Notes under the pieces: model-generated
What the model saw: the letters and a program-made list of their open reading frames with translations, nothing else
Told to the model about the DNA's origin: nothing
Database searches by the model: none
Shown here: in pieces, positions 6,611 through 53,655 of the stretch
How positions within the stretch are numbered: position 1 is the first letter of the stretch
How the letters are laid out: every line of letters starts with the position of its first letter
Translations under genes and position numbers: made by a program
Source of the DNA: Marsupella aquatica
Taxonomy: Eukaryota > Plantae > Marchantiophyta
Assembly (NCBI GenBank): GCA_973895155.1
Contig: OZ316899.1
Location: 16,581,974-16,645,973 of the forward strand
Direction: 5' to 3'
DNA length: 64,000 nt

Positions 6611-6700
6611 TCAATGACTCTACAATTATGACCGGTGTCTGGAATGACTATTGAGTATTTTAATCTTGATATTTCTTGGGTTCTTTAATGACTCTATAAG

Positions 6701-28667: not shown

Positions 28668-28700
28668 ACCCTAAACCCTAAACCCTAAACCCTAAACCCT
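28668..28700 (+). repeat. Interstitial plant telomeric repeat / telo-box tract (CCCTAAA) x ~4.5
   Basis: accctaaaccctaaaccctaaaccctaaaccct. Confidence 0.9.
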
Positions 28701-31150: not shown

Positions 31151-34100
31151 TGTAGAGTAGGGTTTAAGGAAATATGAATTACTTTCCTCTTAAACAACCA
31201 GAATTCATTCCCATTAAGAGCTTGTGAGACCTAAAAGATTGTATTAATATACTTTGAGATAGTTAAGCTAACCTATCTCAGATTTTAAGCCTTTACCGAC
31301 ATGCTTAGGTTAGGTGGAAGGAGTTTTTAATACATCCTCAGGTATTGTGATGTTTGCATCATCAAAAGTGCAATAATCAATTCTAAAAATATAAGAAAAC
31401 AACCAAAAGCCAGAGACGTAAAGATAGGATTAGGCGAGCCTTAAATGTCTCATCTCCTCTTGCCACTTAGCAATCTATGACTAAGTTAGGCACGATTAAG
31501 AGTCAACAGAGAGTCTGTTCAAATTAGGTTGATGCCTAATGCTCATCTTTAAAGCCAACCATCTAAGAATTTGTAAAAGATGCATATAAGATAGCCCATA
31601 TTAACTTTCTGACCTATGTCAAGGCAAAGGTGGTACTGATTACTCCGAACTAACTTATTCTTCTATTCAATCCTTCAGATTGCTCTTTTAGGACTACGCA
31701 ATTTATGAGTTCTCGTATGGTGCTTCTTCCACTAATACTTAATAAGCCATAAGTATTCCATAGTCAACATGAATCTTTAGACCTTTGCATGGTCTCAGGC
31801 ATGCATTGCCAGTCAGCCTAAAGGTTAACTATGACATTGTTAGTCACTTTCCATAGATTTTCTAGCAAGAATGGTCACACACTAATGTCCAAACACAAAG
31901 CATAGATCACCAAAATTATGAATCTATTACTTATCTTCAAAGAATGAGACTTTCAAAAGTGAAATGCAAGTTTGAGTAAAATGGTGGAAACTTTCCCTCT
32001 TATACTTAGGGACAAGTTTCTTCTAAACAAAAGTTGAAAAGGTATGCCTCTTCAATTCCTAACCTAAGTGTAAAAGTAAAAAGTAATGCTAAAGTCTGAA
32101 ACTAGACTATGAGATAAAGTGCTCAGCAAAAATTCAAAGTCTAATTCTTCCTATACTAAGTTTTATAGGGCTTCAAACACAAAACCGGATCAAAAACTGG
32201 GTGGGAAACTGGATGGGAAGCCGGTTCAACTTCCGGATGGAATAACTTTTTACTCTTCAGGAGTTGAAGTGTCAGGCTTCACCGATGTGGAGTCTACTGC
32301 TGGGTCAATGGAGTTGAGAGGGTTTGGCATGAAAGTGATACCTCCAAAGGTAGTAGTAAATGGTGAGGTCGGAATGGGTGGAAAATTGGGTGTAACTGTG
32401 GTAGAAGTGATATCAGGATCAGGAGAGTCAGCCCATCCTTCTGTTGGTGTCACCTGTGGAGATGGAACAGTGACCTTCTCTGCAAATTGAGTCTGCTCCT
32501 CATCAGAAAGGTCATAGAATTTCTTCAGTTCAGCAAGGATAAGCTTGAGGGCAGAGAGGCATTCTTCCACCTTGTCACCATAGTCATGTGCAATCTGGAT
32601 GACTAAGGGCATGAGAAGGGGATTGGGTACATCAATGAAGTACTGCCTAAATAGTTGGGTCTGTACCAGGTCCTCTCCCTTGGTTTCTACTAAGGGTTCC
32701 AGGTGATCCATAGCTCTGGAAATGTTATCGAAGAGTAGTTGCTCCGTTGTGGTCTTCTCCTTTGCCTTGTGCAGCAACTGTTCAAGATGATAGTTCTTCT
32801 TCTTCTCTTCCTCTAATGACTTCTCTAGCTGCTCAATCTTGACCTTGTTCTCATCTCCTTTCATCAGGTCCTCCACTTTCTTCACAAGGTCAACAAGAGC
32901 TACACCAGTCACCTAGGAGAGCCTTGAGAGCACTGGTTCCATGATTCCCATCTTGGTCTTGATGGCCGAAAGATCCTTGAATAAACAAGAAAAATGGTGT
33001 AAGGTAGAGTGTAAAAGACCAGCTGAAGAGGTAGTAGTGCCACTCATCGGGTAGGAAACCGGTTCAGAAGCCGGATCAGAAGCCGGTTCAGGTTTGTCAA
33101 GCTTCCTCTTCTTGGTTGGCCCTACAAAGTCGATCTCTTCCGGCTCTAGGACATCTTCACACTCTGGTAAGTTCTGAATTTCTGGATCCAAGACTCCATA
33201 TTTCACATAGCTGCTCTTGGTGCCAAATGCACTCTTCTCATGTTTGAATAAGGTTTGGTCATGAGAGTATAGATGTACCAAGTAACAGGAGAGAGCAGTG
33301 GGTGCTCTGTTGGACAGGGTGGAGACCTGCTTCTCTAGAACACTTGAGAAGATAGTGGCCCATGATACCTCTATGGTTTTGAAGAAGGAAGCAATGATAG
33401 TACTTCCTACTTTAAGAATCACCCTAGCCTCCTTGGTTTCTCTGGATAGATGAGGGGGACTAGGAATGCCATCACGTTCCTGAGGTCCTTGTGGGTACAC
33501 TGATTGATGGTCCATCCTTCTTTGGCATCCATCTTGCCACCAAAGTATTCCACTGTGAGATTCTCTCCTCTGGGGCAGAAGCCACTCCCTTTCACTGGTA
33601 GCTGAAAAAGCTTCTCCAACGAATGCCTTGGTCCAAGCTTTTGGTCGAGCTCGTCCAGTCTTCTGAAATTCTGGGGGAGGAACTCCTGCCAGCACTTCCC
33701 TCACCATGTCTTCACTCAGAAATCCCCAAGTAAGATCCATCAAGGAGGCACAGCCCATTAGTGTAATATCTTTTCGGAGCTGTTCCTTCTCAGCTGCATC
33801 AGTAGGAATGAGGGGTCTCAAGGGCTTCATGGTGATCTGAGCCTCTTTCCTCTTTGAACGTCGTACTTCAGGCTTTACTGGAGTCCCACTCTGAGTCTTG
33901 GAAGAAGGACTGCTCTTGGCACTCTTCATACTGCCTGGTAGTTGGAGTAGCAAACAGATTTGAACCGGTGAGGGCAGAAGGTAGGAGCTAGAAGTTAATA
34001 TAGCCTCTATAATTACTCCGTTTCGTATATCAGCCAACCTTCTCCATCTCAGCACACTTTCAGCGAAAACGAACGTCTAGCAAGCGAGATATAGCAGAAA

Positions 34101-34754
34101 CCGGTTTGCCACCGGTTTAGTTCCGGTTCGTAAAAACTGGCTCAAGCCCCGAAAGTAGACAACTATCAAAACAGGGGGTCTTAGTGCCAATCTCCACATC
34201 CCCAGCCTTCCCTCCAAGCGTAGGAGTAGGCTACCACCTCACATGAGTCTGTCAAGGCTCTCTTATACCTTTCTCTCATAGAAACTAGAATGGTCCTATA
34301 ATCCGGACCCAAGATCCTCAACCGGAAGGGAAGAGCCTCCTTTCACTACTGCTTCGACAAGCCTATTCACTCGGGAGCTCAAAACTTACTCTGTTCAGCT
34401 TTGAGAGGTGTGAGAAGAGCAAAACCGGTTCGGCCTTAAGAGGGATTCCGGCTCATTGTCAGGAGTCCAATGCTTATGGGTTTTCCCCAGGACAAAGAGC
34501 GTAGCCTTGGCTTCAAGAACCTGGTGTTAGATTTTCTTGATAGCATCCGGAGACAATTTTACGGCTTTTAGTTTGTGGTCCGGTTTCCTTCTCTTTACCA
34601 AGAAATACTTTCTTCCGGTTGAGCCTCTTTTCCTTCTCTTAATCTTTCAATAATGGTTTGCTTAGCATTTAAGGTTCTTCTTTCCCGCTTCAAAGGCAAA
34701 AAAAATTAATTTTTCCACTCTCTTTATTCCTTTCTTCTTAACCATGTTATCACA
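31151..34754 (-). mobile_element. Solo-LTR-like element A (3,604 bp) containing an ORF
   Basis: Begins TGTAGAG and ends ATCACA; 5-bp TSD ACCAC at 31146-31150 and 34755-34759; no terminal direct or inverted repeats and no gag/pol. Its removal restores the host ORF. Confidence 0.85.
32250..33929 (-). pseudogene. Retroelement-associated plant-mobile-domain-like plus coiled-coil protein (~560 aa), with compensating frameshifts and one stop
   Basis: MKSAKSSP...GCASLMDLTWG...YFGGKMDAKEGWTINQCTHKDLRNVMAFLVPLIYPEKP...VSWATIF...SCYLVHLY, then a coiled coil KIEQLEKSLEEEKKKNYHLEQLL. TAG at 32913; frameshifts at ~33590 and ~33420. Confidence 0.7.
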
Positions 34755-37416
34755 ACCACCATGTTCCGAGAGTAAGGACCTGTGGCCATTTCATCCCCAT
34801 GCTTCCAAGAGTAGTTCGAGGGGACCCCACCCAACAGAGCATCCCTGAGTCTCCCCCACCAGATGTCACTCCCCTGAGCTTTGACGGGATAAAACAGACG
34901 GCATAGGAGTTTCAGGAGCAACTCAAGGAAGAAGAGGAGGCAGCCCTGGCTAGGGAGAAGGATTTACCTGGGGGAGAATGGCCAGAGGACATCTGGCGGC
35001 TTGCAGAAAGACGGGGTAGCCCTCTAGCCACGATAGAAGAAATCTAGAAGGCGGCTTGGGAACAAAGGCCGCGGTGGTTGATGCCGATGACTACTACTCA
35101 TTCCACCTATGCTAAAGATAGAGACATGGAGTACGTGGAGATGTGTGGGGAACTTGCGCTCAACATCTTTGGGGAGGAGTTGGAGCAGGGACCCTTTTTC
35201 CAGAGAGAGATGTTGGAAAAACACCGATTGGAAGAAGCGGTGGCTTTGGAGAGAAGAAAGAAAGACGAGGTCATCCGACGGCTTAGAGAGAAGGAAGCCA
35301 AGGCAGAGGACCTGAAGGCGGCCAAGAAAGCCCAAGATGAGCTGCGGATTACGCGGCATGAGCTAAACATCATGCAGGGGCAACTGGATACCGCTCTCTT
35401 TGATAATCAAATTATCAAGGATAAACTGACTCGGACCCAAGGGGAGTTGGCCGATGCGGTCAAGGAAAGGGAGAAGTGGAAGAGAGAGCTGAGGGACACA
35501 GAGGAGGCCCACATAGCAACCAACAATTGGGCCATGGCGGAGACCCAGAGGAGGGAGAGGGCGTTGAAGGGGGAGCTCAAGGATATCCGTAGAGCCCTTG
35601 AGCAGAAGGAGGCCGAGTTAAGGAAATCCTATCAAGGGATTATTGTGCTGCAGCAGGAGCTTGCATCCCTGACGGCCAGCTTCAAGGCCAACCTGCGTGA
35701 GAAAGACGACCAACTCAATCAGACTTATGCCAAGATGAACAAAATGGAGTTTGAGGTCGTAACGGAGCTGGACAAGGAGCTAAGAGCAACCCAGAAAGAA
35801 AGGGCTACCTTAAAGAAGGGATTGGAGGAAGCCCAGAAGGAATTGGAGGAAGCCCAAAAGGAGCTGGAGGAGGCGCGAAAGGATTTGGACTAAACACAGG
35901 AGCAATTGGAAGAAAGCACGAGGAAGATGGAGAACTTACAGCGGCGGGCCGACAACCAAACGGAGCGGCTGAAGAAACAAGCCGCAATATTTAAGTGCTT
36001 GGCTTCATCAGTTCCAACTCCAATTGGGGCAACCAAGTTGCCAAGGGTAGTACTGGCCGAAGGACAACCCGCGACACTTGCACCGGTGCTGGAAGTAAGT
36101 GGCAAGGGGAAGGGACCAACTGCCAAAACAGGGAAGCAGAAGAAGCGGAAACCTTCTGGGTTAGGGAGTAACACGGCTTCTCAAGCCATCGTGACCACGG
36201 AGGAGAACCCGGCACCAACCTCAGGCAGGGTCATGGTAGAGGATCCAACTGTCCTAGAAGGCGGGGATGGCAAAGCCGAGGCCAGGACAATCAGTGATGA
36301 AGTTGGGGTACCAAATCCACCACTAGAGCATGCCGGGGGGGCCGTAACCATATTGGAGGCCGTGGCCAATGCTGAGGCCAAAGCCGAGGGTGGACCCGGT
36401 CAGGCCGTGGGAGAGTTGACTGGGTCTGGGGCAGGTAATCTGTCAGAACATGGACCTACAGCAGTGGCTACAAAGGAAGCGTTGGGGGCATCCATTGAGG
36501 ATCAGCCATCGCTACCATGACGGTGGTGGAGGGCCACTCCTTTTAAGGAAGGCGGACGTCGAGGGAGGAGGCATGAGTGGGCAAGGCGGGCTCAAATCTC
36601 CAAGTTTAGAATTAGGATCAGGACCAAGAGGCGGCCCTGACACTTAGATTAGTGGCATTGCGGATCCACTGGTAAGAGCAACACTTGTGCTCCTGCCTCG
36701 TTGTACATAGGTAGATTACAGTTAGGATAGATTAGGCTTACGCTGCAAGGAATTAGGTGGATCCACTGTCAGGATAAGTACCTGGGCAGCGGGGAGTTCA
36801 AGGCCTTCTTCTTTAGCAAGTTTTTAGTGCACCAGCAAGGTTGGGATCAAGTAGTAAAAAAAGCTCTTGGTTAGTTATACTGTGACCCTTGTGTATATTC
36901 ATGTTTCCTCATGCCTAAGAGATGAATAGAGTTGGCCTCATGACTTAGTTCGCAGATCTTGTGTATGAGAAGTACTGTTTGTATGGCAAGTGCATGGTAT
37001 AACTCAATCAGAAGGAGTCATTTTGCTATTTGTGTGTCGCATTAACTTGTTTGAAGATTGCCCACATGAACCAAGTGAAGGGAGTAAGCAAGGTAGTAAG
37101 AGTTGGATGTGTCGAGCTAAAAAAGGTCTTAGGGGCTTACCCAAGCCAGTTGGGGATCATTTCGACGGCGGAATCCAAACATACCTAAAGGACCACGAGA
37201 GGAAGACAAGGGAAGGCATAGAATAGGTCGGCTATGTATCTCATGACCCGATGAAGGATCTATCCAGTATATGTGTGTAAAATGTTAGTAGAGAGATAGC
37301 AGCGTCCCATGCCGCTAAGCCGCGGAACCGGCCTCACCAAGAGCAAAACCTGCGGGAATTGGCTTGTGCAGAGGGGGTTTCTTGGGTTTAGGGAGCCATG
37401 GGACGCACCACATTTT

Positions 37417-37434
37417 TGGCGCTAGATGCAGGGG
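37417..37434 (+). promoter_or_regulatory. Primer-binding site of the host gypsy element, just after the probable LTR end ...GCACCACA (37412)
   Basis: CA-tttt-TGGCGCTAGATGCAGGGG lies ~250 bp upstream of gag. The TGG start complements tRNA CCA; the tRNA species was not identified. Confidence 0.7.
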
Positions 37435-39141
37435 GCATTTCTTAAGCCGTGAGATATGAAGTTAGGAAGGAAGCGTAGGTAATGACTAAACCTACGCTAA
37501 GGGAGGAAAGAGCAATTGAACGGGAGAGAGCTCGTCTGCAGCAGCTCGCCGGGTGGCATGATACACAGCAACTGAGAGTGGCAGAAAGAGCTAGTAGCTC
37601 CGTATTGAAAGTGGCATCGAAGAAGAAATACCAGAAGAAGAGTCGGTAAGGAGAAGTAAGTCCCCAACCGACATGGGGGAACCGGAGGCACGGCCAGAAG
37701 AGAGGCCAGGAACCAGACTAAGCCAACGGTCGCGCATTCATTACAAGGCATTCCATGGAAGAGGAGATGAGGATCCGGACAAATGGTTGGATGACTTTGA
37801 GGGAACCACTGCAGCAAATGGAGAGTCAGCCATCAAGATGCAAATTTTTCCCGGCCTGTTCAAGGGTGAGGCTAGGCCGTGGTACAGAGCATTGGATGTG
37901 GAAGATCAAGCCATCTGGCATACCTTCAAATCACTATTTGTTAAGGAGTTTTGACCCATTGGAACCTCAGAGCTAGCAGTGCTGAAGTTGGGACGACTTC
38001 GGTTCAAGGAGAACAAATCTTTCAGGAAGTTCTTGCAACGCTTCCAAAAGCTGGTAAGACGTACAAAGACCAATGCATGTGAAGGTATGCAACTTCAATG
38101 GTTGGTGAATGCTTTGCCATAGAAGATGAGTTTTGCAATTAGGAAGGAGAATCCAGAGACTTTAGCCAAGGCAATTAGAGATATTCAATTGTACATTAAT
38201 GCAAATATCACAAGCCGAAAGAAACAGCTCAAGTCTGAGAGTGTCACGTCGTAGGCTTCGGCCTTAACTCAGACTTCAGCTTAGACGGGCACATCCCTTG
38301 TAAATCTGAGGGTTCGGGCAGGAAGGGAAGCACGTAATGCACCTTATTCTCGTAAACTAGCGCTAAGTGCGCATACTGCTAAATACGGACACCTCCTAGG
38401 TATGGTTTGTGTTCCGCCGCCGGAACGTACCTTAGTCGATAGCAGGATCGACCCCGGCTTAAGGGCTTCTAAGCCTTCGTGCTGTCCGCCTTCGATCCGG
38501 ATTCGATGATACAGGTCCTCAACCCGTGCTCGCAACCACTTACCCGCAGGCTGCACCCTGTGCACGTCTCGGGTAGTGCGTTCGGCCTGGCGCTGCCACC
38601 CATATACGAGAAGCCCACACACATATGCGCACACATGCATACAATCTCGATTTACACGAAGGAAAATGATGGGAAAGGATTTTACTACAAAGGGAACATA
38701 TGCGTACACTTAGTTGACACGACAGCCCTGGAATGCACAGGTTCAAGGCCGAGGGTGCACACTACAATGGAGCCCGGCTCCGCACTCGCCCGGCGAGCTT
38801 AGTCCTACCCCCTCCCCTTGGTACTCTGTCATTCCCAGAGGTCGGGACTCCCCGCATGTCCCGTGGATGTTCGACTCTGAAACTAAACCCCCCCCCCCTT
38901 GCCTCTACCGAGGGGTGCACTAAATACTAAGAGCCGAGGAACGGGGTGTCCTCTCGCCAAAGATTCGCTGACTAAGGTCCTAACTAAGCTGACAGTCAGG
39001 CCGGAAAACGGCTGTGTCTTATTAGAAGATCCTAATCTATGCAGGCTGGACAGTAGGGCAGCGCTGCTGTACCTAAGGCAGGTGCCTGTCCCAAGAGCCT
39101 GACTAAGCCAATCCTAATCCTAATCTATTCCTACTCCGCCG

Positions 39142-41346
39142 CTAATGCCTGGCACGCTTGCCAGAGCCGCCCGAATGGGAACGGCCATCCCGCTGCCTTC
39201 GAAGCCTGTCATTGTCCGCTTTGAGGAGCTGGACCTGGTCCAGCAGAGATTCGTTCTCTCGCCTCGCCGTGTCCGTCTCCTCTGCTGCCTCCTGACATGC
39301 CTCCTCCAGCTGCTGGGCGTCGCTCGTCAGTTTACTCGCCAGCTGGTCCTGCTTCTCGGCCTCGGTTTGGAGCCACGCCATCTCGGCCTGCAGCGTGGCT
39401 ATCTCCGTCGCGTCCCGCTGGGCTCGCTCCTCGGCCTCCTCCAGGTCTTTCTGCCAGGTGACAGCTTGTTTCTTCAAACTGTCAATCTGGTTCTGGAGTC
39501 GTGTAATCTCGGCCTCGTTCCCAGCTTTGGCCTGTTCGGCTAGGGCGGTAAGAGCGTACGCCTTTGCTAACAACTCATCGGCGGCTGCAACCTTGGGTCG
39601 TAGTTGCAGAAGCTCAGCCTCTTGAGCCACCACTTCATTCTTTAGGTACACGGACTCCACCCGGTACCGCTCTATCCTCTGAAGGGCCTCCGACTGGGCC
39701 CGACCTGCCTTTACGGCGGCAACCAACTCCTGATTGAAGAAACAGGCTACCTTCCGGGCCATGAACTCCCCGGTATCCCGGGCAATTTGATGAGAGAAAT
39801 CTCCCAGAAGCCCGTTCAGAAACGTACCCTGTACGAAGAGTTCCGGGTGGTCCAAGTTGTGCCTGTCCGGATTTGGGCACGGGCAGACATCAACACGCGC
39901 AGGGGCCGGGGCAGTGACGTCCAGCCCTGGGGACATAACGTTGGAAGGGGCTGGAGTGTCCTCCTGCAGCGATGTCCGGTTCTCCGGAATTGCCACCGGC
40001 GGGTCCTTGGGAGACCCGGGTTCGGGTAAGACCTCTGCCGTACCAACTTCTGTACTTAGCCCGGCTAGTTGGGTCGCATCAACGGTTGCGACGACCGACC
40101 CCTCCGGCGCCTCCTCGGTTACGATTACAGCTATTTGTGGAGGTGGGGTGGGTGAAGCTGGCGTGTCCACTGGACTTCGGGCCTCGGGTTGGGGCCGTCT
40201 CTCCAATGCCGGAAAAACCCACCTAGCTGGGACCAGCTTTGTAACGTTGATGCGGGGAAGGGTTCGTCGATCAAACCGGGCGTACCACTCAAGAATGATT
40301 TCGATATGGCTAGCAAAATACGCCTTCCCGCCAATGTACAGCGTCTTCCTTTGCCGCTCCATCTCTTCATGGAATTTCTTAGCAAAGTACGACGCCCATT
40401 TCCTAGGTCGATAGTTCTCGACCTGGATAACCTGGGCGGCGGAGATCTCCCCCCGGGGTTCCATCATGTGGAGAGCGTACCTCTGGAACTCCAGCCGCTC
40501 AGCTATCTCGGGCATGAGGCAGGTCCTCATCACGAACCCGTTGTCTACTGATCCCTCTGAGGGAAAACTTGAAGATTGGTACTTGGCCCCCTTGCCCCCG
40601 GGAGCCCGTGATTCGACTCGATGGTCACCTTCGGGTAACCCGAAGATCATCTTGAGCCGTTCTTCTGTGAGGGACATATTCCTTCCCCGCAGCCGAGTCT
40701 GTTGACGTACGTTGTCATAATTCTTGACGAATTCTGTCATGTCCTCCCCGTAGTACCTGCAAGTGTTCCAGGGGAGAGAGGTGAGGTGCTCAAATCCCTG
40801 AGTCTTCAGGTACACCGCATGCTTGGGATGGAGGATGTTGCTATGAACGTTTTCCCCCATGCGATGCATCGTCACCTTGGCTATGGCTACCGTGGCCAAC
40901 GGTAACCCGGATGCAGTGGCGGATTCCTTCCTCTTCTTTCCCCGTGACTGACTCGGGGAAGGTGATACTTCCCCATCCTCCCGATCGGGCCTGGGGAGTG
41001 CCACTGCGGTTGGTAACGGGCCCGGGGCGGCCACGGTCACTATGTTGTCTGCTGGGGCCGCTCCTGGGGTCAGAGCAGGGGGTGGGGACGATATAGTGTC
41101 GGCCCCCCGCGCGCTTGTTCCTCTGGGCCGCCTGGTCAAGGGTGGGGTAGCCTCGTCGTCATCGCTAAGATCCACAGCGTTGATGACAGAGCGTACCTGT
41201 GCTGGCTGGGTGATAGGTGGTGGGGTTTGGCTAGGCTGCGGCTGAGGCTGAAGCTGAAGTTGAGGCTGGGGTTGCATGGGCACGGGTACGGGTACGGGTA
41301 CAGGTCCGGCTGAGTTGGTCATGTTGGTTGATGGCCGAGTTCCCAT
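39142..41346 (-). CDS. Plant-mobile-domain/Transposase_32-like plus coiled-coil protein, 734 aa
   Basis: Uninterrupted ORF. Pro/Gln-rich N-terminus, KKRK NLS-like motif, globular core GFEHLTSLPW...EFVKNYD...TRLRGRNMSLTEERLKMIFGLP, and a C-terminal heptad coiled coil. The domain name is an inference. Confidence 0.8.
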   Translation of the reverse strand: MGTRPSTNMTNSAGPVPVPVPVPMQPQPQLQLQPQPQPSQTPPPITQPAQVRSVINAVDLSDDDEATPPLTRRPRGTSARGADTISSPPPALTPGAAPADNIVTVAAPGPLPTAVALPRPDREDGEVSPSPSQSRGKKRKESATASGLPLATVAIAKVTMHRMGENVHSNILHPKHAVYLKTQGFEHLTSLPWNTCRYYGEDMTEFVKNYDNVRQQTRLRGRNMSLTEERLKMIFGLPEGDHRVESRAPGGKGAKYQSSSFPSEGSVDNGFVMRTCLMPEIAERLEFQRYALHMMEPRGEISAAQVIQVENYRPRKWASYFAKKFHEEMERQRKTLYIGGKAYFASHIEIILEWYARFDRRTLPRINVTKLVPARWVFPALERRPQPEARSPVDTPASPTPPPQIAVIVTEEAPEGSVVATVDATQLAGLSTEVGTAEVLPEPGSPKDPPVAIPENRTSLQEDTPAPSNVMSPGLDVTAPAPARVDVCPCPNPDRHNLDHPELFVQGTFLNGLLGDFSHQIARDTGEFMARKVACFFNQELVAAVKAGRAQSEALQRIERYRVESVYLKNEVVAQEAELLQLRPKVAAADELLAKAYALTALAEQAKAGNEAEITRLQNQIDSLKKQAVTWQKDLEEAEERAQRDATEIATLQAEMAWLQTEAEKQDQLASKLTSDAQQLEEACQEAAEETDTARRENESLLDQVQLLKADNDRLRRQRDGRSHSGGSGKRARH

Positions 41347-41888
41347 GAAGCTCTACAGGTGCTGGTAGAAGTTCTCCGAAGCGAGTGCGGACGCCCTTGT
41401 CGAACGGTTGGTACTGGACTCGCCGTTAATGACAGCCCGAACCTGGGCAGGGATGTGGTCGAAGTGATGTCGCTGCAGGTCGATTGTACCCGGGATATTG
41501 AAGACCTCGTCCGGAAGCCGAAGCAATGCTTCCCAGAACCTGATATATTTGTCTCCGTTGAAGAAGTACCCAGATACCTCAGCTGGTCGGTAAAGCTCGC
41601 TCTGAGACGGGTAGTCAAAGTTAAGGACGTAGTGGTGTCATCCTGCTAGGCGGATGGCTCTCTCGTATTCGCGTTCGATCTCGTATCGGCGCGGGTTGGC
41701 GTGTTTCAATGAATCGGCCAAGTGCCTTCCGGTAGATAGGAACTGCGTCCAGAATCGAATGGCCGAGCTGGAGAGGATCGTGTGCGACATTCAGAGGAGA
41801 TAGTAGTGGCGACCTAGAGAGAACGAGAGAGCTGGGGTCGAAGCTGGCGCACGGACTGATGGACTGGTGCACTACAAAGGGTTGGCTC

Positions 41889-41900
41889 CCCTTTTATACT
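41889..41900 (-). promoter_or_regulatory. Candidate TATA box of element B
   Basis: The minus strand reads AGTATAAAAGGGG ~360 bp inside the element's 5' end and ~550 bp upstream of the ORF. Confidence 0.5.
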
Positions 41901-43443
41901 TTGAGGGCTTGTCGATCCCCGACGTCTCCTCGACGCCCATAGGTTGAACCGCTCACGCTTGTGGTGTACCGGCCACTCCGCCGGTCTGAGTCAGCGTGCG
42001 TCAGTGGCCGCTTCCTTAAGTTCGTTATACGGACCCGAGGGAGGGGCCCCTCCACGCTCGTAACCCGGGTGTGCGAATAGCGACCCGCCGCCAGCCCGAA
42101 CCTGAAGTCCCCCTTATTGCCTAATGATGTCCTACCCCTAATGATTACCTAAATACTGTCGTTATGCTAATAATAGCGGCCTAAGACCCACCTAACGCGC
42201 GTGCCGAGCGCAGTTAGACTGAATCACTCATTAACCGCCGTACCGGCGGCGTCACAGAGAGTTCCTCATCGAAGGAAGGATCACCCCATAAGAAAAAAGA
42301 TAAGAAAAAGAAACATTCTAAGAAGTCAAGAAGTGATAACTCAAGCTTGGATAGTGGAAGTAGCAAGAGTGAGTCATCTTCTAGTTCTGAAGAAGAAAAA
42401 TCTAGGGAAAAGAAAGGCAGAAGGAGGGGGAAGTTGAAAGTCAAGCTAGAGGCTAAAACGCCAGATAACATCGTAGCTCTTACCAAGCAGCTTAAGGCTA
42501 TAATAGCAGAGGTAAAGGCGAAGAAGAAAGTAGTACTGGATTATAGCTCTGTATGGTGTGCCTTACGTTATAAAACCGGACACCATAAAGATGCATGTCC
42601 TAAACTCAATACTAGTCATGTTTGGCATGTAGCTGAGGTCAGACCATGTGAGGGAGAAGTAGAGTACTTTCTAGGGGATGCCGCTGATAGTGTTTTTGGG
42701 ACCAGTGAGACTGGAGCACGAGACCTATCCATCCAACCTGCATCTCTCTGGTCAAGATTAAGGAACAATCCGGGAGAGATGTATCCTCGGATTATTTAGA
42801 ATCCGTCAGTACCTCCTAGGCCGAATGTGCAAAGATTTGCGTCATGCTATAATTGTGGTCAACCTGGCCATTTTGCTAGAGAATGCCCAAATGCACGCAA
42901 ACAAGGTGATGGACAACCAGCTCAGCTATGTATGGGATGCCGACAGGAAGGTCACATGCTAGGACAATGCCCCACTTGGTTGGCAGGACTGGCCGCAAAT
43001 CATAAGCTCTTGCCGGTCAAGGTCTTGCCACTAGGTACTACCCCAGGTGGAGTTCAAATCAACCACATTGAACTTGGATGGCAAACGGATGCCGAGGCAG
43101 AGTTTGGACCATCCAATGATGAGGCCGAGGCCCTATCAACATTCTCAGAAGAGGATTTGGACCATGATTGCTACCGGGTCTCTACTCGATCCACCAGAAG
43201 GAAGGAAAGGTGGGATGGGCTGGCAAAAATAAAGGGAAGGTTAAGGAAGAAAGGATTGACTCTTCGTCAACATCAACGGAAGGAAAGGCGCCGGCAACAC
43301 AGGTAAGCCATGAGCTCACCAGTGACCCCAATCCTTCACAGGACAACGACTTCAATCAAGACCACCCTAAGTTGTTCTACCCCTCTATTATGGCTAGTGT
43401 TAAGGAGCAACTTTGAGAATTAGAAACCCTGGAGAATACCGAA

Positions 43444-43608
43444 GCCATAGCCAAGGATGTGAAACAAGCAAAAGCATTGTTTGCTTCGGAAGATCCGACG
43501 CCTATGGAAACTAGTGTGAAACAAGCCATAGCCAAGGATGTGAAACGAGCAAAAGCATTGTTTGCTTCGGAAGATCCGACGCCTATGGAAACTAGCATGA
43601 AACAAGCC
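43444..43608 (+). repeat. 81-bp (27-codon) in-frame tandem duplication between gag and protease
   Basis: gccatagccaaggatgtgaaac...gaaacaa occurs at 43444 and 43525. Confidence 0.9.
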
Positions 43609-45372
43609 AAAGCCAAGATGGAGACACCGCCAGAAGAGAAACCAATAGTCCCCTATGACCTGGCTAAAGATGTATTAGAATCTAGAGTCTCGGCAACAGT
43701 AGTAGATCAACTGTTGAAAAATAGCCCGTACTTTCAAAAACAGTTAAGGAAGGCAATTCTTGGCAAGCCGAGATTACCCAAGGTAGCAACCAGATCCAAC
43801 GTGATGATGATAGAAGAAGATCAAGGAGCCCCAGCATTACCATTAATGATTCAAGGAGAAATATTACTACGGGTACCCATCGATGGAGGATCAGGGGTAT
43901 GTATTATGATTGATTCAACAGCAAAAGGGTGGGGTCTAACGCCGGAGATGACTGGAAGAGTGTTGAACATGGCCAATGGGTATCAGGTCATTCCCACGGG
44001 AGTGTTAACCGGCATCAAGACTAAGATAGGAGGTATCTTCTTTAGCATTAACTATGTAGTAATGAAGCCGGTAAAGCCTACATCATTTTGACTATTGATT
44101 GGCAGGCCATGGCTGTACCTAGCCAAGGTAATAGAGGATTGGGGTAAGAAGGAGTTCACTTTTGGGACCCCCTCTATCACGGTATCCTGGGACACCAAGG
44201 ATGATTGTAGGAGAAGCATCAGGGAGGTAGACGGGTACGACAGTGGACTGGAGTCAGCCGATGAGGTACATTGGCTAGAATGCCTCACTGACCTAACCGA
44301 AGAAAGTGTCTTTGGACCAGAAGTACCCCCTAGCGGACTATGGCAAGAACCTATGGAGAGTGACTTGGAGGAATGTGAAGAAGAAACCAAGGATTGCTTT
44401 GCCATAGAGTCCACCTTTTTAGCTTCAATTCCGGAGGAAGCACAAGAGGTGGACCAGTTGGATGAAACGGCTAAGTGGGGAGCTGCACCAGAGACAGTGG
44501 ATTTTCCTCAGGCATTGTGGCAGAGCCGGCAGGATCCACAACGCCGTCTATCATCGGCAACAAATTAAATACCAAGGGATTGGCTTACAAGCCAATCACA
44601 AGGGCAGAACAAATTGAGGCCCTACTAGAAGCCGGAAGAGCACAGCGGCCTCACCCTCAGGAAGCAGGAATGGATGAGATGCACAAAAACAATCCAGAGC
44701 CGAGCCAGGATGGGGAGCCGACCACCAATTCAAAACCAAATAGACCGGCAAGGGAGCAGTCTGCAGATAACAAGGAAGAAATCAAGTCAATCGACTCGGC
44801 TAGTACAGCCAAGATTCCAGTTTATGGAGGTATGAGACTGGAGAGGCTGGAAGCCGAGCTAGACCCAAATTTGAAGAAGCAGATTAATATGATCCAAGCA
44901 CGACAATATTGGAAGCTCGACTTAGGAGAAGGAAGGGAACTAAACTTAGGGCGGGACCTAGCACCTGAGCTTGAGAAGGAGATCAGTGAATTACTGGTTG
45001 AATTTCAGGATGTGTTTGCATGGAGCCACCAAGACCTGAAGGGAGTAGACCCAAAATTAGGAGAACACCAAATTGATCTAATGTTAGGGGCCAAATCATT
45101 TTGACAACCAATTTGAAGGATGAACCCTAAGTATTTCCTGATGGTCAAAGTTGAAATCGACAAGCTAGTGGAAGCTAGATTCATCACTCCAGTCCTACAC
45201 TCAGACTGGGTATCTCCAATTGTGATAGTTCCCAAGAAAGCTGGACCCGATGGTAAACCCAAGATCCGGGTTTGTCAGGATTACAGGAAGTTGAATGAGG
45301 CTACGTTGAAAGATCATTTTCCTTTACCCTTTACCGATATGGTACTAGACATGGTAGCCAGTCATGAACTAT
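43459..45372 (+). pseudogene. pol: Gypsy pol, part 1: aspartic protease, spacer and RT N-terminus
   Basis: IDGGSGVCIM, LLIGRPWL, EFQDVFAWS, WVSPIVIVPKK, RVCQDYRKLNEATLKDHFPLPF; contains stops and frameshifts. Confidence 0.92.
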
Positions 45373-46273
45373 CACTAGTAGAAACCGGGGGGTATTTAGA
45401 CCCCATTAAACGACTATTCAATACCGTATAGGACTTGGAAACGACTGGGAAGGACTCTAGTCCTTTATAGGACTGCGAGTCGTATGTTTTGTTACTATAA
45501 TCAACTGAGTCCTTTATAGAACTGGTTTATAAGTCGTTTAATAGACTGGATTTTCAGTCTATTTTAGTCTTTGTGTGGGTAGCTTTGGTGAGTCTTTTTC
45601 AGTCTTTTATGGGCTGCGATGGTGAGTCGTTGGGAACAACTCAAAAGGTTATGGAGGGTAGTCTTTAAATATACTTTGTGGGTTTATAAAATGACTAAAG
45701 TAGACACTTTGTGGGGGTTTATAAAACGACTAAAGTAGACACTTTGTGGGGTATGTACAAGTCTTTCATGTCAACTGGAAATGAGTGATGAAGACCCCAC
45801 TATACTACTTGGAATGAACTCACTCTTGTGCACAAATAACACATTTCATTCATGTTTTATTGTGTACTTGGAATGAACTCACTCTATAAGGTCACCATTC
45901 ACCATGTTAACATTAGAACCTCACACAAATTTTCAGAAAGCCATCTTCTATACCATGTACACTAATATGAATTCACAGATTCAAACATCATAGACTACAA
46001 AGAAGGTCACAAAGCATTCGTCTATACCATACACACTAATACTGAATTGATACAAAACAGATTCAAGTATCATAGACAATCACCATAGAGCCATAGTTTG
46101 ACATCAATCACTTGTTTCATACATACAGAATTCAGAAATATCAATGTCACACACAACGGCTCCTTCATCCTCTTTACCAAATGGAAAAATTGGTACAGAT
46201 ATTTCTTGGATTTTTCCAAGGCAATGTCAAAATGTAACACAATTCACATGATTCTATCTACACTTGTATTCAG

Positions 46274-49200
46274 TCACTGCAGACTAACACACTCTGATGG
46301 CCAGAGCACAAGAGATCCTACTGCATCTGCAATTATTTCTTGAGGTGGATCATCGTCTCTATTCGGAAATGGCAAATTACAATCAGATACAATCACTGTA
46401 GTCAACAACACTACTACATGGTCATCCGGGACCACTTTGCCATGGAATTTAGCATGATCCGGTCACAAAATGCCTGTACCCACACATACCTGCGAGTCAT
46501 TCTCCCATGATAGAAGATTATGGACTGGCTCTGCTGTGGCTATCACCTCCACCTTACCCTGGCTGTTTTTCTTGGCTTTCCTGGGTGGCTTATACATGAC
46601 ATTATTCATACCTTGGTTGCGAGTCATGACTTTGGCACGAGTGTTTTGTGCTGGTGATCGAGAATTGGCTACACTCTTCTTCAAAGAATCTGCATCCATA
46701 TTTGACACTTCCGATTGTGTAGCAGGATTTCCCTGCGACATCATCTCAGTATCTGCTAACATTGTACTTGCTTCAATTGAAGCATCTACAATCTTACTTG
46801 CATCCAATGTTGCTCCCAAGTTTCGACGTCGCTTCACCCTGCTCCCACTTGGTTGAGAGTCTGTCAACTCTGCATCAACTACAATTCAATGCATTGTCCA
46901 ACATAAGTGAATCACTCATCACATGTGCGCCATGTACATGTCACCATCCACAAAGTTGTCACTATCTCCTTACCATTATGAACAGCCTTCTTCCCCTTCT
47001 TTGCCATTGCCATATCCTCCATGTCTGCTTCTGCTGATCAATAAACAGACCACAAGATTCAGGTTCAATCTATTAACCACTGAATTGTTTCTCAACAATG
47101 GTAGGAGAGGAATTTAAAGCATCAGCTTACCTGATACCTCCTTGGCTATGGTCACTGAGGCACTGGGCACATCTTTTTCATTGCTCTTTGAATCACCTGA
47201 TACATCAATCATGATGTCACTTCAATTCCCAGTTTATCCAACCAATTCTTACAGAAAAGATTACCTCCAACCGGCTTAAGCTTCACAAAACTCCATGCAC
47301 TTTTCAAATGTAATGTACTGGATCATAGCAGGTTACCTGTCTCAGCAACCTTTTTGCCATTCTGCTTACCGATTACAGGGTCCAGGTTCTCTGCCTCCAC
47401 TCTTCCTGCATTCAAACCATTCACTCAATTCATGAAAACTTACTTCTAACATTTGAACATAGGACACAATGAACAATGGGCCTCTCTTGTTTCAAAATCC
47501 TCATTGCATACCTGTGTCAGATTTGCCAATTCCCTTTTTTGTTAACAAGGGCACACTTTGTACAATGTTGCCCTCATTGTTTGGTTGGGAACCACCCAAT
47601 TTTTCAATCACAAGCTTGAAATTAGATTCCACTGATGCAAGAAGGTTCGCTACAGATGCCTCCACAATATCCAAACGATCAGCCAATTTACTTTCCACTC
47701 GAGGGAGTCCACACTCTAATGACTTCAACCGTTCAGACATCTTTGTGAGAGTTGTAACAGTTCCCTGTCATAACACAGTTTACATATCTCAGATAATTGT
47801 CCCCAAGAACTGGTTGCTTACTTCCTACTACAATTCTTTCTGATGCTCAAGGCCAAATAGTCACAGAACATATAGAATTACAACATAATCACCTGTTTGG
47901 AAGTCACACTTGTCACCTCACTCCTTTGTTTCATGAACTCCTCTCTCACTTCTTGTGCTGATGGTTCTTCACCTGTCAATTTCTTCTGCAGTCCACATCA
48001 ACATACATATGAATGAAACCAAGTGTTGATTGTCAATGAAAATGTAATAATGGTAGCAAGATGATAAGTTTGAGGCTTACTATTAGGCATGTCACTGCCT
48101 TACCAATTGTTCTTTCACTGGAGCATAACTTCCTCTCCCAGCCTGTGAAAGGTGTTTCACTTTGCCTCGAGCATTTGACATCAGTTCACTCTTGCTCTGT
48201 CCAGCCTCCGACATGAACCCTTTGATTAACCGTGTCCATTGATCCAGTTCCAATGATGGGGGTGGTGGCATTCTCCTGTTAGAACCATTGTCTATCCACA
48301 TCCTTTTCAACCTATGCCTCTCTTGTTTCAAAATCCTCATTGCATAATCTGATATGCAATCTTCAACTGGGCCCTTACCATCATTACCAACATAGTCCCA
48401 CCGTTCAAGAATGTCCTTGCAGATAGCAGCCCAATCAGCTTTGTTCTGACTCCTAAACTCTGTAATGCTCAAATCTAACCAACGCAATACTTCTCCTCTT
48501 AGGTCAGAATGCCAACGGTTCTTACCATCACATGTGGGAGTTATCCAACCTTCGGAATTCACTTCTACTTTACCAAATTTGTTACTGTCTCCTGCCTTGG
48601 TACTCCCTGAAGCGCTACTAGGTGTCCCTCCACGGCCTGGTGTCCCCCCACGGCCTGGGGTCCCTCCACGGCCTGATCTCCCCCCACGGCCTGGATTGCA
48701 TTGTCCAAACCTCCCTGGAGTCCCTGCACATTTACAGGATCCATTTACAGTCACTTACATTAGGTAAGTATGAATCATAAATCCTGCTGCCAAATATACA
48801 CTGGACTTCAGAGCAATTCTGCAATGACCAAGTTACCTCTCCCTTGGCGCATAGATGGTTCTGGACCACCTGTCCTATTGCTTTGTCTTGATGAATTAGG
48901 GCCGTTTCTCCCGCCTGTGAATGATTGCCGCCTATCTGAACGTGGATGGCCTTTGTTGTTTTCGTGATTGTCCCAATCAGAGTCTGCATACCAACAGGTA
49001 CATGCCACACTCATGGACCTGTAAGATAAACTCTTTGCCCTAGCTACACATGAGATAAGTCCATATTGAGCTAAATCTCTACTACCATCACAAAATCACT
49101 AGCACAAGGCACTTACTTGTCCAATCATCCTCCTCACCTGTCCATTGCCCTCTGTACCCGTCTCTACCACGCTCTGGGTGTTCATATTCATCCCATCCAT

Positions 49201-49459
49201 CTTCTGCTCCATCATAGTCATCATCATAATTATCAGGCGTCCCTTGCCAATAACTCTGGCTCCTTCTAGGGTATGGATTATGTGATTTCTCTCTAGCTGC
49301 CCACCTACCTGGGACTTGATGAGGGCCCTGTGCATCCTGCACAGGTGCATTTTTCTGTGAGCCCCCTGCATCTGGGTCTCCATCCATATCCAATCTTTCC
49401 TCTTCACCCCACTCTCCAAGCCCCATGTCTGTCTCCATGTCATCACCCTCTTCCCCCAT
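46274..49459 (-). pseudogene. tnpA: CACTA ORF2 / TnpA-like gene, copy 3
   Basis: Homologous to 14836-17950; premature TGA at 46463 (CGA in copy 2). Confidence 0.65.
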
Positions 49460-49636
49460 AGCTTCTGCACAGCACCCACAACCAAACAGGGAGAATCAGC
49501 ACACTAAATTCAAAGTATCAATCAATTTCATGCATATCCAACTATCCTAAACATCATTCCAGGCAGCAATTCCCGTTCTGTGACTCTGTGCAGGTAGTCA
49601 TCCTCAACCTCATACTTGCCAATCGCCAGCTGTTGC

Positions 49637-52600
49637 CTATTGCAAATCATCAACCTCATCATATTCCATTTGCCCAGGTTCATCATATGTCTCTCTCAAT
49701 GTTAAGGGGATGTAGTCAGTCCCTGCCCGAGTTGGAAGTACAGTCTCATGACTAGGATGCTCGAATGCAGCATGGTCATCCAAACTGAACTCTACTTTAC
49801 TTCCATCCATCCGCCTGTTCCGTGCTTGGCTATGGCATACCACCCTCCAGCCATGTGACTCCTCCACATCTGCAAAGAAAGCCTGTTCAACTTGGCTAGG
49901 GAAAACAAAAGGCTCAGACCATTCTGGTACTCTGGACCTAAAATTGGCCAACAAGAACCCATCATGATCACGCTTCATGGTGGCCCTTGGTCTCTGCCAC
50001 TCTGATTTCACCCATGATCCCTTCATCAATATCACTGGGACACTTGTGTTACCATAATTCAACACCCAAATGTCGGTCAACTCCCCCACGTAACCCATCT
50101 TCATCCACCCCCTCTGTTCTTCAGAGGTTCTCTGCTCAAACACATAAATCAAACCACAATCATATGATACACAATGGTCACCCTGCTCATCCCTCACTCG
50201 ATAATGATTTCCATAAGCTCTCATCCGTTTGTAGGTCAGAATAGACAATCGTGGTGGCACAGATAGAAGATACAAATCCTTCTCCATATCTGGGTGATGT
50301 CTACTATGCTCTCGAATTGTCACCCGAATCCACTGCTCGAACTGTGGGAAGGGATCCTGCTGCCCAGAGTGTGCAGCTTTTTGCATATCATATTCCCTGC
50401 AATATGAGGTACAGGCATAGTTAGGTCTAAACAACACATGACAACCTAAGATCACCCTTGGAACAGACAAGAAGCATCACAACAAAGGCAAGTCAATTCA
50501 ATCACTCACCTCCACCATGGTTGCATAGGCTCTGTGTTTGCCAGCACATATGAATGAGCCTTGTCTCGAATCGCAACAGGCAGCTGAACAGCACGTCCCA
50601 CACCTTCAACAACCTCGCCACTCACTCCATCATCTTCACCAGATTTCCAAACTCTTGTCATAGCTTCACCAGACCCAGCCATGTACTCTGTTAGGAATCC
50701 CAACGTCTCATCCTTAATGTACCCCAATGCCATGGAAGCCTCTGGCCTGTAGTATGTTCTCACATGACCTTTCAACAACTTCATGTATCGCTCCATAGGG
50801 TACATCCATCTGGTACTGACTGGCCCATACTGCCCTAGCTCTTCTACCACATGGATTAGGAGATGAGTCATAACATCAAAGAAAGCAGGGGGGAAGTATA
50901 TCTCCAAGTCACAGAGGACATAAGCAGCATCCTGCTTCAACTGCTCCAATCCTTGGGGATCCCACACTTTCACACATATACGGCGAAATACATTGCACAG
51001 TCGAAGAATGACATTACGGACTGGTTTCTGCATGAGACCTCTAAGGCATAGGGGCAGAATGTGCTGCATCAACACATGGTAGTCATGTGTTTTCATACTG
51101 CCAAGTTTATTCTTTGTAATATGCTTCTTGAAGGCACCAGCATAGCCAGAGGGCACTTTCAGACAGCTCAATCTATACAAGAATGTCTTCCATTCATCCT
51201 GTGTGCACACATAGGGAGCTTGGAACTTGAGAAGTACATTGGGATTGCTTGCATGGGGCTTCAACCAAAGGTGAGGGCGAATCCCCTTCTGTTGCATATC
51301 AGCTCGAACTGCTCCTGTATCTTTCTCACCCGACAAGAACTTCAGCAAGCTCTCACAAATATTTTTCTCAATGTGCATGACGTCCACATTGTGTTTGCTG
51401 GGCTCGAATTCCTGCACTCCACAAAGCAAAGAATTCAACAACAGAAACACTAATTAACCACATAGGAGGATTGTAACCAACATCAATCCACCATTGCTCC
51501 AATCTAAAATTGCAATCATACAGGGGCTGGAGGCTAAGTACATTACCCTCCAGTACTCCAACTCCAAGTCCATCAAGGTCTGTCTTTTCACACCGTGTTT
51601 CACCACTGGATCCTCAGGTTCTCGATCAGTGGCACTTCTCTTGTCCCAATCAGCCTTCCTGGCTGCCCACCTCAGGACTTGCTCTCTGGTGACCCTCTGT
51701 GGTGGGCCACGAAGCTCTGTTTTGTTGTTGAAGTGTGCAATTTGAGACCGTGTGTGCCTGTAAGGATGATCAACAGGCAGATACCTTCTATGCCCCTGAA
51801 ATTTCATACTGTGCAGGGCATGCGACCACTCACTTGTCACATTTTTCCCACATGGTGTGCACCCCACATAGCCCTTTGTCACTCGTCCAGATATGATGCC
51901 ATGGCCTGGGTAATCTGCTATATCCAGCAAACAAATTGCATGCAGTCTAAAGGGGCTGGGTCGAAGAAGCCCCTTCAGAACATCATGGGTTAACACCCCT
52001 TCTATCCACAAAGTCTTCCACTCTTCCACTGCTGGAGCCATCATGATATCTATGAATTGCTCGGTCACAGAAGCTGGTCCAGGGATTAACAGCACCATCA
52101 TGACAAAAAACCTCTTTGTAGTCATCCATGGGGGAAGGTTGTAATTTAGCAGCGTAACCGGCCAACATGAATAACGGTTGTTTTTGTCTCCAAATGGGTT
52201 TACTCCATCCAGTGATAGACCAAATCGAAAGTTCCGCTTCTCTGCAGCAAACTGTGGCCACCTCTCATCAACAAATTTCCAATGGTTGGAATCTCCAATG
52301 TGACGCTGCAGGCCATCACTGCTCTTGTTATCAGGAGTCCATGTCATCAGCTTGGAAATGGCAGGGCATCTAAACAGACGTTGTAGTCTAGGAATGAGAG
52401 GAAAATGACGAAGAACCTTGGCAGGGTGTGTACATTTCCCTACATTCTTGTACCTGTGCTTACCACAATGAGGGCATGTCAATTTATCTGCATGCTCTTT
52501 GCGAAAGAGAACACACCCATCAGGGCATGCGTCAATAGACACATAGTTCAGCCCAAGGTTAGACATCAATTTCCTAGCCTCGTACATATTTTTTGGAATT

Positions 52601-53337: not shown

Positions 53338-53655
53338 CACTATACACACGCACTCAGCACCCTGTCATTTTATTATGCAAGTGAAAAATACACTTCCTGT
53401 TAAGGATTTCACCCCCGACTGTACTTGCCAAAATACGTAACGTTCCAAAAAAACAAAAAATATAGGTGCCTGAGTCATGTACCTATTCTCAAGTGAATGA
53501 GACAAAATTCCTAAATGTTTGAGGGTGTCAACTCCTCCGCTGTCCTCACATGTACTGCCTCTACACGTACATCCATGACCATATCAGAGTCCAATCATGT
53601 ATAGTCATAGACACAGGTGCCAGGTGCGAGACCGGTGTGAGATGTCCTCATCTTA

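What the first reader, a model, noticed from the sequence alone, without database searches (positions are those of the whole stretch)
38242..42256. A 4-kb solo-LTR-like unit that encodes an intact 734-aa protein
Seen: TG...CA ends, a 5-bp TSD (GAGAG), no terminal repeats, no gag/pol, a TATA candidate ~360 bp from the 5' end, and one uninterrupted ORF ~0.9 kb from each end. Known: TG...CA with a 5-bp TSD and no internal domain is the signature of a solo LTR. Extra ORFs of plant gypsy elements (Ogre ORF1, Athila env-like, Retand antisense ORFs) normally lie between the LTRs; LTR-internal genes are known mainly from retroviruses (MMTV sag). Inference: the LTR is itself an expression cassette, so LTR-LTR recombination, which normally neutralises an element, would leave a complete gene behind.
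Basis: partly seen in the sequence, partly recalled or inferred. Interest (0 to 1): 0.85.

Follow-up and report, generated by a model that had tools for sequence, protein, structure and literature searches.

The report
VANC-fold gene inside likely solo LTR
This 4-kb mobile piece of DNA, likely from a leafy liverwort, is likely the leftover end repeat (solo LTR) of a jumping gene; two thirds of it is one 882-codon gene, broken by two stop codons in this copy, whose core is predicted to fold like the plant anti-silencing protein VANC21, so the family likely carries a silencing-countering gene inside its end repeats.

Summary
The insertion is real: 4,015 bp, TG...CA ends, GAGAG duplication, splitting a Gypsy gag in frame. 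Contigs of public runs show the empty site and many other copies ending at the same bases with unrelated flanks. The 'intact 734-aa protein' is wrong. The gene starts 444 bp further upstream (41790), has 882 codons and carries two in-frame stops here. Read with X at the stops, it aligns end to end with a 906-aa relative (E 7e-91). The only species-named relatives are from the liverwort Calypogeia fissa. No Pfam family matches. The core model (pLDDT 89) matches VANC21 alone (Z 8.4, next 2.0), a fold shared with MAIN-type plant mobile domains. Differences among copies favour synonymous changes (13 of 22 listed). The decisive test, paired copies around gag-pol with PBS and PPT, was inconclusive; no genome was available. 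The scan already noted this design elsewhere in this genome (4.66-kb LTRs with a 1,120-aa VANC-fold gene, unchecked notes). This unit has no look-alike there, so it is likely a second family. Verdict: a new variant of Gypsy accessory genes; LTR status and anti-silencing are inferred.

The parts
38237..38241 (.). left target-site duplication GAGAG
   Evidence: sequence; single copy at the empty site in runs X1, X2, X4, X5
38242..42256 (.). the 4,015-bp mobile unit, likely a solo LTR; TG...CA ends, imperfect 11-bp terminal inverted repeat (9 of 11)
   Evidence: depth step and unrelated flanks at 38242 in X1, X3, X4 and at 42256 in X1
42257..42261 (.). right target-site duplication GAGAG
41891..41898 (-). 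TATA-box candidate, 359 bases from the unit end and 108 bases before the ATG; activity untested
   Evidence: only TATA[AT]A match on either strand; spacing
39142..41790 (-). accessory gene, 882 codons plus stop, broken in this copy by in-frame stops at 41640-41638 and 41355-41353
   Evidence: translation with X at the stops; residues 8-881 align with residues 4-899 of P0046 (906 aa), 29.6% identity, E 7e-91
   Evidence: tblastn of P0046 E 7e-14, P0004 E 4e-15, P0038 E 3e-4; relatives start at the same place (alignment A4); model pLDDT 64.6, best Z 5.5
40198..40890 (-). core globular domain (codons about 301-531), predicted VANC21-like fold
   Evidence: AlphaFold2 pLDDT 88.8, pTM 0.84; Foldseek 9lnj prob 0.99, TM 0.52, E 0.012; VIA-align Z 8.4, rmsd 4.3, 215 aligned, next hit Z 2.0
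39196..39840 (-). C-terminal predicted coiled coil (codons about 651-865), followed by a basic tail
   Evidence: no proline, 52% A/L/Q/E; only sub-threshold coiled-coil Pfam hits; matches P0046 689-899, E 6e-14
38242..39141 (-). 900-bp non-coding region after the gene; five of its six TGTA words lie at 38766-38643, a possible polyadenylation region (inferred)
37417..38241 (+). host Gypsy element left of the insertion: PBS-like site at 37417 after a ...CA end, then decayed gag
42257..45372 (+). host Gypsy gag (zinc knuckles), protease and start of RT, continuing the frame cut by the insertion

Best explanation
The unit is a multi-copy mobile element with integrase-type ends and is likely the solo LTR of a liverwort Ty3/Gypsy retrotransposon whose accessory gene lies inside the LTR; the gene's predicted VANC21-like core likely binds the family's own DNA and counters host silencing. 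Shown: fixed ends, 5-bp duplication, empty site, many insertion sites, an 882-codon conserved gene behind a TATA-like box, two stops in this copy. Predicted: VANC/MAIN-type fold of the core, coiled-coil C-terminus, basic nuclear-import-like clusters at codons 288-292 and at the C-terminus. Inferred: (1) a full element integrated into the gag of an older Gypsy element and recombination between its two LTRs left one (about 0.85); (2) intact copies transcribe the gene from the TATA box, so it needs nothing from the internal region; (3) the protein oligomerises through the coiled coil, binds family DNA and lowers its silencing in trans (about 0.5 given step 1); (4) solo copies keep the gene's place but decay by point mutation, as this one has, so it is likely a pseudogene.
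For: Ends, duplication and in-frame split of gag. Empty site in four runs. At the left end, 18 contigs in 8 listed rows from X1, X3 and X4 leave the unit within 5 bases of 38242; rows with several contigs agree only 0.51-0.59; summed depth in X3 steps from 65 to 5,057 at that point. At the right end, 15 contigs of X1 leave at 42256 with agreement 0.42. X1, X2 and X5 cover 30 of 30 bins and X6 28 of 30, under four coded species labels. The ends resemble the LTR ends printed for rice Retrosat2/RIRE8 (PMC3485330, passages), and Gypsy LTRs reach about 5 kb with 4-5-bp duplications (PMC6317226, passages). 43 relatives at E up to 0.001; end-to-end match to P0046. Of the 22 listed differences inside the gene 13 are synonymous against 31% expected (p 0.006). 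All 6 listed 1-2-base indels in the unit lie outside the gene, and the only listed indel cluster inside it adds six bases in both X5 and X6 (table 4). VANC21 is the single clear fold match in two searches and a re-alignment. VANC is structurally homologous to MAIN (PMC13547354, section 10), and Gypsy elements carry plant mobile domains (PMC5418596, passages). CpG observed/expected is 0.87 in the unit against 0.46 in the host gag-pol and 0.42 in a neighbouring DNA transposon.
Against: No paired copy, PBS or PPT was seen; the window holds one copy and no genome was available. This copy is broken. The fold match is moderate (Z 8.4-8.6, rmsd 4.2-4.3, 9-10% identity; Foldseek E 0.012, above the 0.001 line) and a shared fold shows no function; the same fold serves silencing in MAIN/MAIL1. 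No DUF1985, plant mobile domain, Athila ORF-1 or Transposase_28 match among the Pfam rows listed. No tandem array or family-specific motif like VANC targets: CTAA is enriched in the unit's non-coding parts (26 in 1,366 bp, family-wise p 0.005) but equally in neighbouring non-coding DNA, and GTGCA (p 0.004) is counted twice in four palindromes. The selection test uses only the 22 in-gene rows among the 40 shown of 496 differences, chosen by the tool, many from one variable stretch. High CpG content may reflect youth alone: a copia element with 99.5% identical LTRs has 0.65.
Confidence: 0.5

Rival explanations
1. It is a solo LTR with an internal gene, but the protein does something other than counter silencing, such as tethering the integration complex to chromatin, regulating the element's transcription or handling its RNA, like the unexplained extra ORFs of Athila, Ogre and Retand.
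For: Same structural evidence as the best explanation. The fold is shared with MAIN-type domains, which act in silencing. No clear repeated target motif. Functions of plant extra ORFs are described as unknown (PMC7264820, first third of the text; PMC11963269, passages).
Against: The only solved match is an anti-silencing protein bound to its DNA; conserved basic columns in the core (R98, R135, R149 of the model at 90% or more K/R) fit nucleic-acid binding; the unit is less CpG-depleted than its neighbours.
Confidence: 0.3
2. It is not an LTR but a self-contained non-autonomous element with TG...CA ends, moved in trans by an integrase or DDE transposase and carrying only the helper gene; or it is the remnant of one of the split-repeat Gypsy families that the scan noted in this genome.
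For: No flanking gag-pol, PBS or PPT seen; all listed flanks at both ends differ. The unit reads as promoter, gene and 3' region. Earlier unchecked notes describe Gypsy families with split repeats in this genome.
Against: No terminal repeat long enough for a TRIM, LARD or typical DNA transposon. The flank test could not see a shared flank. TG...CA with a 5-bp duplication and LTR-like end words is the usual solo-LTR signature. Unchecked notes describe full elements in this genome with a VANC-fold gene in both 4.66-kb LTRs.
Confidence: 0.13
3. One reading: the 734-aa frame from 41346 is the real, intact product of this copy.
For: The frame is open for 734 codons and holds the core domain and coiled coil; re-initiation at 41346 cannot be excluded.
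Against: The first ATG after the TATA box is at 41790; relatives begin there and conserve the upstream domain; a ribosome starting there meets a stop at codon 51.
Confidence: 0.05

Closest known systems
Extra ORFs of non-chromovirus Ty3/Gypsy elements: plant mobile domain (Ogre), Athila ORF-1, Transposase_28 (Retand) (PMC6317226, PMC11963269, PMC5418596, passages; PMC7264820, first third)
   Same: A large, fast-evolving accessory gene of a likely Gypsy element, with a globular domain plus coiled coil; Grande's gene has its own promoter (title of a cited paper).
   Different: Those genes are described in the internal region, between the LTRs; here the gene is inside the TG...CA unit. No Pfam match to any of these families. 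Host is likely a liverwort; the plant mobile domain survey covered angiosperms.
VANC21 and related anti-silencing proteins of Arabidopsis VANDAL (Mutator-like) transposons (PDB 9lnj, 9lnk; PMC5735166, passages)
   Same: Predicted fold of the core (Z 8.4-8.6, 211-215 residues aligned); a coiled coil, predicted to oligomerise in VANC21 (PMC13547354, passages); encoded by a mobile element.
   Different: 9-10% identity; VANDALs are DNA transposons and VANC is described as dicot-specific; VANC targets form tandem repeats of a motif, not found here; function untested here.
sag of MMTV-type betaretroviruses (PMC4667437, passages)
   Same: A protein gene inside the LTR that stays in solo LTRs (490 of 527 sag contigs lacked other retroviral genes).
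   Different: Vertebrate retrovirus, superantigen, gene mostly in U3; here a likely plant retrotransposon, an 882-codon predicted chromatin protein downstream of a TATA box; its place in U3, R or U5 is not determined.
Rice Retrosat2, RIRE3, RIRE8 (PMC3485330, passages)
   Same: LTRs over 3 kb, similar end words, many solo LTRs, an extra ORF0.
   Different: ORF0 is described as upstream of gag-pol and was searched separately from the LTR; the passages seen do not place it inside the LTR.

Membership tests
Solo LTR of a Ty3/Gypsy retrotransposon | TG...CA ends with a short imperfect inverted repeat | tested here: met
   (9 of 11 bases)
Solo LTR of a Ty3/Gypsy retrotransposon | 4-5-bp target-site duplication with an empty site | tested here: met
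   GAGAG both sides; empty site in X1, X2, X4, X5
Solo LTR of a Ty3/Gypsy retrotransposon | Dispersed copies ending at the same bases; no gag, pol or direct terminal repeats inside | tested here: met
Solo LTR of a Ty3/Gypsy retrotransposon | Other copies occur in pairs around gag-pol, with PBS after the 5' copy and PPT before the 3' copy | tested here: inconclusive
   No shared flank among listed loose ends, but listed pieces have 43 or more letters on the stretch, so short contigs leaving a high-copy end on a shared flank would be missed; no genome; no locus found in metagenome or viral contigs
Solo LTR of a Ty3/Gypsy retrotransposon | Working Pol II promoter and polyadenylation site defining U3, R and U5 | not testable with these tools
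   TATA motif only; no RNA holder listed
VANC anti-silencing proteins | VANC21 DNA-binding fold | tested here: met
   Z 8.4, rmsd 4.3, 215 aligned, next Z 2.0 of 48,161 chains; Z 8.6; Foldseek prob 0.99 but E 0.012; moderate match on a predicted model
VANC anti-silencing proteins | DUF1985 or DUF287 sequence domain | tested here: not met
   not among the Pfam rows for the query or for relatives (one search shows 25 of 52 weak families)
VANC anti-silencing proteins | Encoded by a Mutator-like VANDAL DNA transposon | tested here: not met
   no transposase in the unit; TG...CA ends and 5-bp duplication
VANC anti-silencing proteins | Short target motif accumulated, often in tandem, in the element's non-coding DNA | tested here: inconclusive
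   CTAA and GTGCA enriched against shuffles, but CTAA is as dense in neighbouring non-coding DNA and no tandem array is present
VANC anti-silencing proteins | Sequence-specific loss of methylation at target copies | not testable with these tools
   needs methylome and binding data
Gypsy extra ORFs (plant mobile domain, Athila ORF-1, Transposase_28) | Match to PF10536, PF03078 or PF04195 | tested here: not met
Gypsy extra ORFs (plant mobile domain, Athila ORF-1, Transposase_28) | Gene lies in the internal region between the LTRs | tested here: not met
   gene lies inside a unit bounded by TG...CA and a duplication, with no repeats on either side of it
MMTV sag-type LTR gene | ORF within U3, upstream of the genomic start site | not testable with these tools
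   orientation of the unit relative to gag-pol is unknown

The most novel reading that the evidence does not exclude
Several liverwort Gypsy families have placed a VANC/MAIN-fold anti-silencing gene inside the LTR itself, possibly between the start site and the polyadenylation site, so that every LTR, paired or solo, is a complete gene. Host LTR-LTR recombination then scatters a pool of trans-acting anti-silencing genes instead of disarming the element, and the VANC fold served transposons long before flowering plants.
Probability: 0.35. Interest if true: 0.85.

Novelty: new variant of a known kind. Interest (0 to 1): 0.62.

Why it matters
Plant LTRs are treated as non-coding, and the papers I read place extra genes between the LTRs; my ten paper searches listed no plant case of a whole gene inside an LTR, though subscription papers are missing. 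If the unit is an LTR, solo-LTR formation would not remove the accessory gene. The fold links an unnamed liverwort protein family to VANC21 and MAIN, which gives a testable function for the long-unexplained extra ORFs of Gypsy elements and bears on whether VANC arose from host MAIN or from an older mobile domain. The broken state of this copy shows that solo copies also decay, which limits the 'gene left behind' idea and matters for how such loci are annotated.

Tried and rejected
Word-index protein searches: none for residues 150-390, none among longer proteins of 1,587-4,530 aa, so no fusion with gag-pol was found, weak evidence, and 2 already known hits with the alignment. ESM Atlas gave no answer. 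PDB sequence search with the profile: 4 rows, best E 0.32. Viral fold library: no match at E 0.001. N-terminal domain: model pLDDT 64.6, best Z 5.5 to ferritin-like bundles, not assigned. Pattern and protein scans of viral and metagenome contigs found no locus. No RNA holder listed; this says nothing on expression. Loose-end test for a shared PBS or PPT flank: inconclusive. Idea that the unit or the second homologue is the LTR of the nearby copia element: rejected, the copia has its own 194-bp LTRs. Idea that the host Gypsy is the parent family: rejected, no DNA similarity between the unit and 30950-37700. Purine tracts at 38900 and 38819 (minus strand) are not followed by TG, so not taken as a PPT. 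The hairpin at the right end is not beyond shuffles (z -1.39). Large joints inside the gene (table 5) have unknown letters between their sides and were not used. Summed contig depth was not used as a copy number. No complex prediction was sent. The VANC21 structure paper and PMC9016345 were not held; no supplements were read.

Full report
Observation. The unit 38242-42256 is 4,015 bp, starts TG, ends CA and is flanked by GAGAG on both sides; blastn finds no second copy or internal repeat in the window. The ends match as an inverted repeat at 9 of 11 bases. It sits in the gag of an older Gypsy element, whose frame continues across it; that host has a PBS-like site at 37417 (reading it as a primer site is my recall) and protease and RT downstream. 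No genome was held.

It is a real, multi-copy mobile unit. Seven of 10 listed runs hold it, in five studies under five coded species labels; I laid six of the seven. X1, X2 and X5 cover 30 of 30 bins and X6 28 of 30. X2 has a joint skipping 4,020 bases, the unit plus one GAGAG, and X1, X4 and X5 have contigs running from the left flank into the right flank, so the empty site exists. At the left end 18 contigs in 8 listed rows leave the unit within 5 bases of 38242, and rows with several contigs agree only 0.51-0.59 (4 rows not shown). At the right end 15 contigs of X1 leave at 42256 with agreement 0.42 (868 rows not shown). One X4 contig inside the unit has depth 4,999 while three that reach the end have 45-136, which suggests many copies, but depth is not a copy number.

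The gene is longer than reported and broken here. The 734-aa frame continues upstream to an ATG at 41790, 108 bases after the only TATA match, with stops at codons 51 and 146. A search with the core domain gave 43 relatives at E up to 0.001 among 1.84 billion representatives. A cluster member, P0046 (906 aa), aligns with residues 8-881 of the gene read with X at the stops (29.6%, E 7e-91). All eight relatives in alignment A4 share the upstream domain and seven start with a methionine at about the same place; P0004 and P0046 match it at E below 1e-14, the others more weakly. The architecture is N-terminal helical domain, proline-rich linker, core, linker, coiled coil, basic tail. Of 21 representatives whose source I saw, 5 are named as Calypogeia fissa proteins and none carries another species name; the host is therefore likely a leafy liverwort.

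The family gene looks constrained. Of the 40 differences shown (of 496), 22 fall in the gene; 13 are synonymous against 31% expected (p 0.006) and 14 are at third positions. The tool chose these rows and many come from one variable stretch, so this is indicative only. The six listed 1-2-base indels in the unit are all outside the gene, and the one cluster inside adds six bases in both X5 and X6. The two stop positions are not among the rows shown, so I cannot say how many other copies are open there.

Fold. No Pfam family passes its threshold for the gene or for the relatives scanned, apart from one repetitive, likely spurious hit, P0043. The core model is confident (pLDDT 88.8, pTM 0.84, 32 sequences). 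Foldseek ranks VANC21 bound to DNA first (prob 0.99, TM 0.52, E 0.012; next E 1.3). VIA-align over 48,161 chains gives VANC21 Z 8.4, rmsd 4.3, 215 aligned, next Z 2.0, and Z 8.6 on re-alignment. I submitted these searches before seeing the scan's earlier notes. VANC proteins bind short motifs in non-coding parts of their transposons and remove methylation (PMC5735166, passages). VANC is structurally homologous to MAIN, and VANC and Athila proteins are predicted to oligomerise through coiled coils (PMC13547354, section 10 and passages). Plant mobile domains occur in angiosperm Gypsy elements and host silencing genes (PMC5418596, passages). So the match names a fold shared by silencing and anti-silencing proteins, not a function. 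The N-terminal domain has no clear match.

Is it an LTR? The ends and 5-bp duplication fit Gypsy integration; similar end words are printed for Retrosat2 and RIRE8 (PMC3485330, passages), and plant Gypsy LTRs reach about 5 kb (PMC6317226, passages). The decisive feature, pairs around gag-pol with PBS and PPT, was not seen and could not have been: listed pieces have 43 or more letters on the stretch, whereas a contig leaving a high-copy end along a shared flank would carry fewer (my inference from short-word assembly). Contig scans found no other locus. Earlier scan notes, unchecked, describe in this genome 15.5-kb elements with a 1,120-aa VANC-fold gene in each 4.66-kb LTR, and a solo copy. 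My unit had no look-alike by protein, DNA or place, so it is likely another family of the same design. These notes raised my odds for a solo LTR from 55% to about 85%; they are leads, not evidence I checked. Which way the gene faces relative to gag-pol is unknown. On the gene's strand the order is TATA at 359, ATG at 467, stop at 3,115, a TGTA-rich stretch near 3,500-3,600 and the end at 4,015; this would fit a gene between start site and polyadenylation site, or an antisense gene with its own promoter.

Mechanism. Most likely a Gypsy element carries its accessory gene in the LTR; intact copies would make a nuclear, oligomeric DNA-binding protein that lowers silencing of the family in trans; recombination leaves solo LTRs that hold the gene until point mutations break it, as here. 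In weak support, the unit's CpG ratio is 0.87 against 0.46 in the host and 0.42-0.65 in neighbours, which youth could also explain. Against, no VANC-like motif array was found.

Novelty. Extra ORFs of plant Gypsy elements are known and are described between the LTRs (PMC7264820, first third; PMC6317226 and PMC11963269, passages). Genes inside LTRs that persist in solo LTRs are known from MMTV-type sag (PMC4667437, passages). Passages of two recent papers touching liverwort Gypsy elements (PMC13468544, PMC12885004) and of PMC5890265 did not mention LTR-internal genes. Ten searches listed no plant case; the library lacks most subscription papers, including the VANC21 structure paper.

Noticed in passing
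window 12885-13970 (+) and 30952-31180: A second, decayed member of the same protein family (profile hit 12991-13590, E 3e-32; 28% identity to the unit's core), cut by CACTA-type ends at 12884 and 13971; no DNA similarity to the unit.
   Followed up: partly
window 32250-36520: Two divergent extra ORFs upstream of the host Gypsy's PBS-like site (37417). The minus-strand one weakly matches the core profile (33625-33431, E 6e-5); the plus-strand one is a coiled coil. The start of the host LTR was not found, so whether they lie in an LTR is open.
   Followed up: partly
window 13971-30951 and 45373-58187: Two copies of a CACTA-type element (Transposase_21; 97% identical over 8.5 kb). The first has an extra 22391-26796 stretch with BRCT and NSD-type PHD finger ORFs.
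   Followed up: no
window 6985-12519 (-): Copia element with 194-bp LTRs 99.5% identical, yet with stops and frame breaks in gag-pol.
   Followed up: partly
window 2400-6660: Tandem array of about seven 576-bp units with internal palindromes, possibly subterminal repeats of a DNA transposon ending at 12884.
   Followed up: no
window 58640-63400: An insertion splits the host Gypsy RT; it holds a decayed transposase-like frame and a Myb/SANT-like ORF at 62672-63166 (weak Pfam row), which suggests a PIF/Harbinger element (recalled).
   Followed up: no
window 38755, 38915, 38560 and 41867: Four GTGCAC palindromes in the unit's non-coding parts and none in the gene; one lies about 25 bases after the TATA box.
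   Followed up: partly
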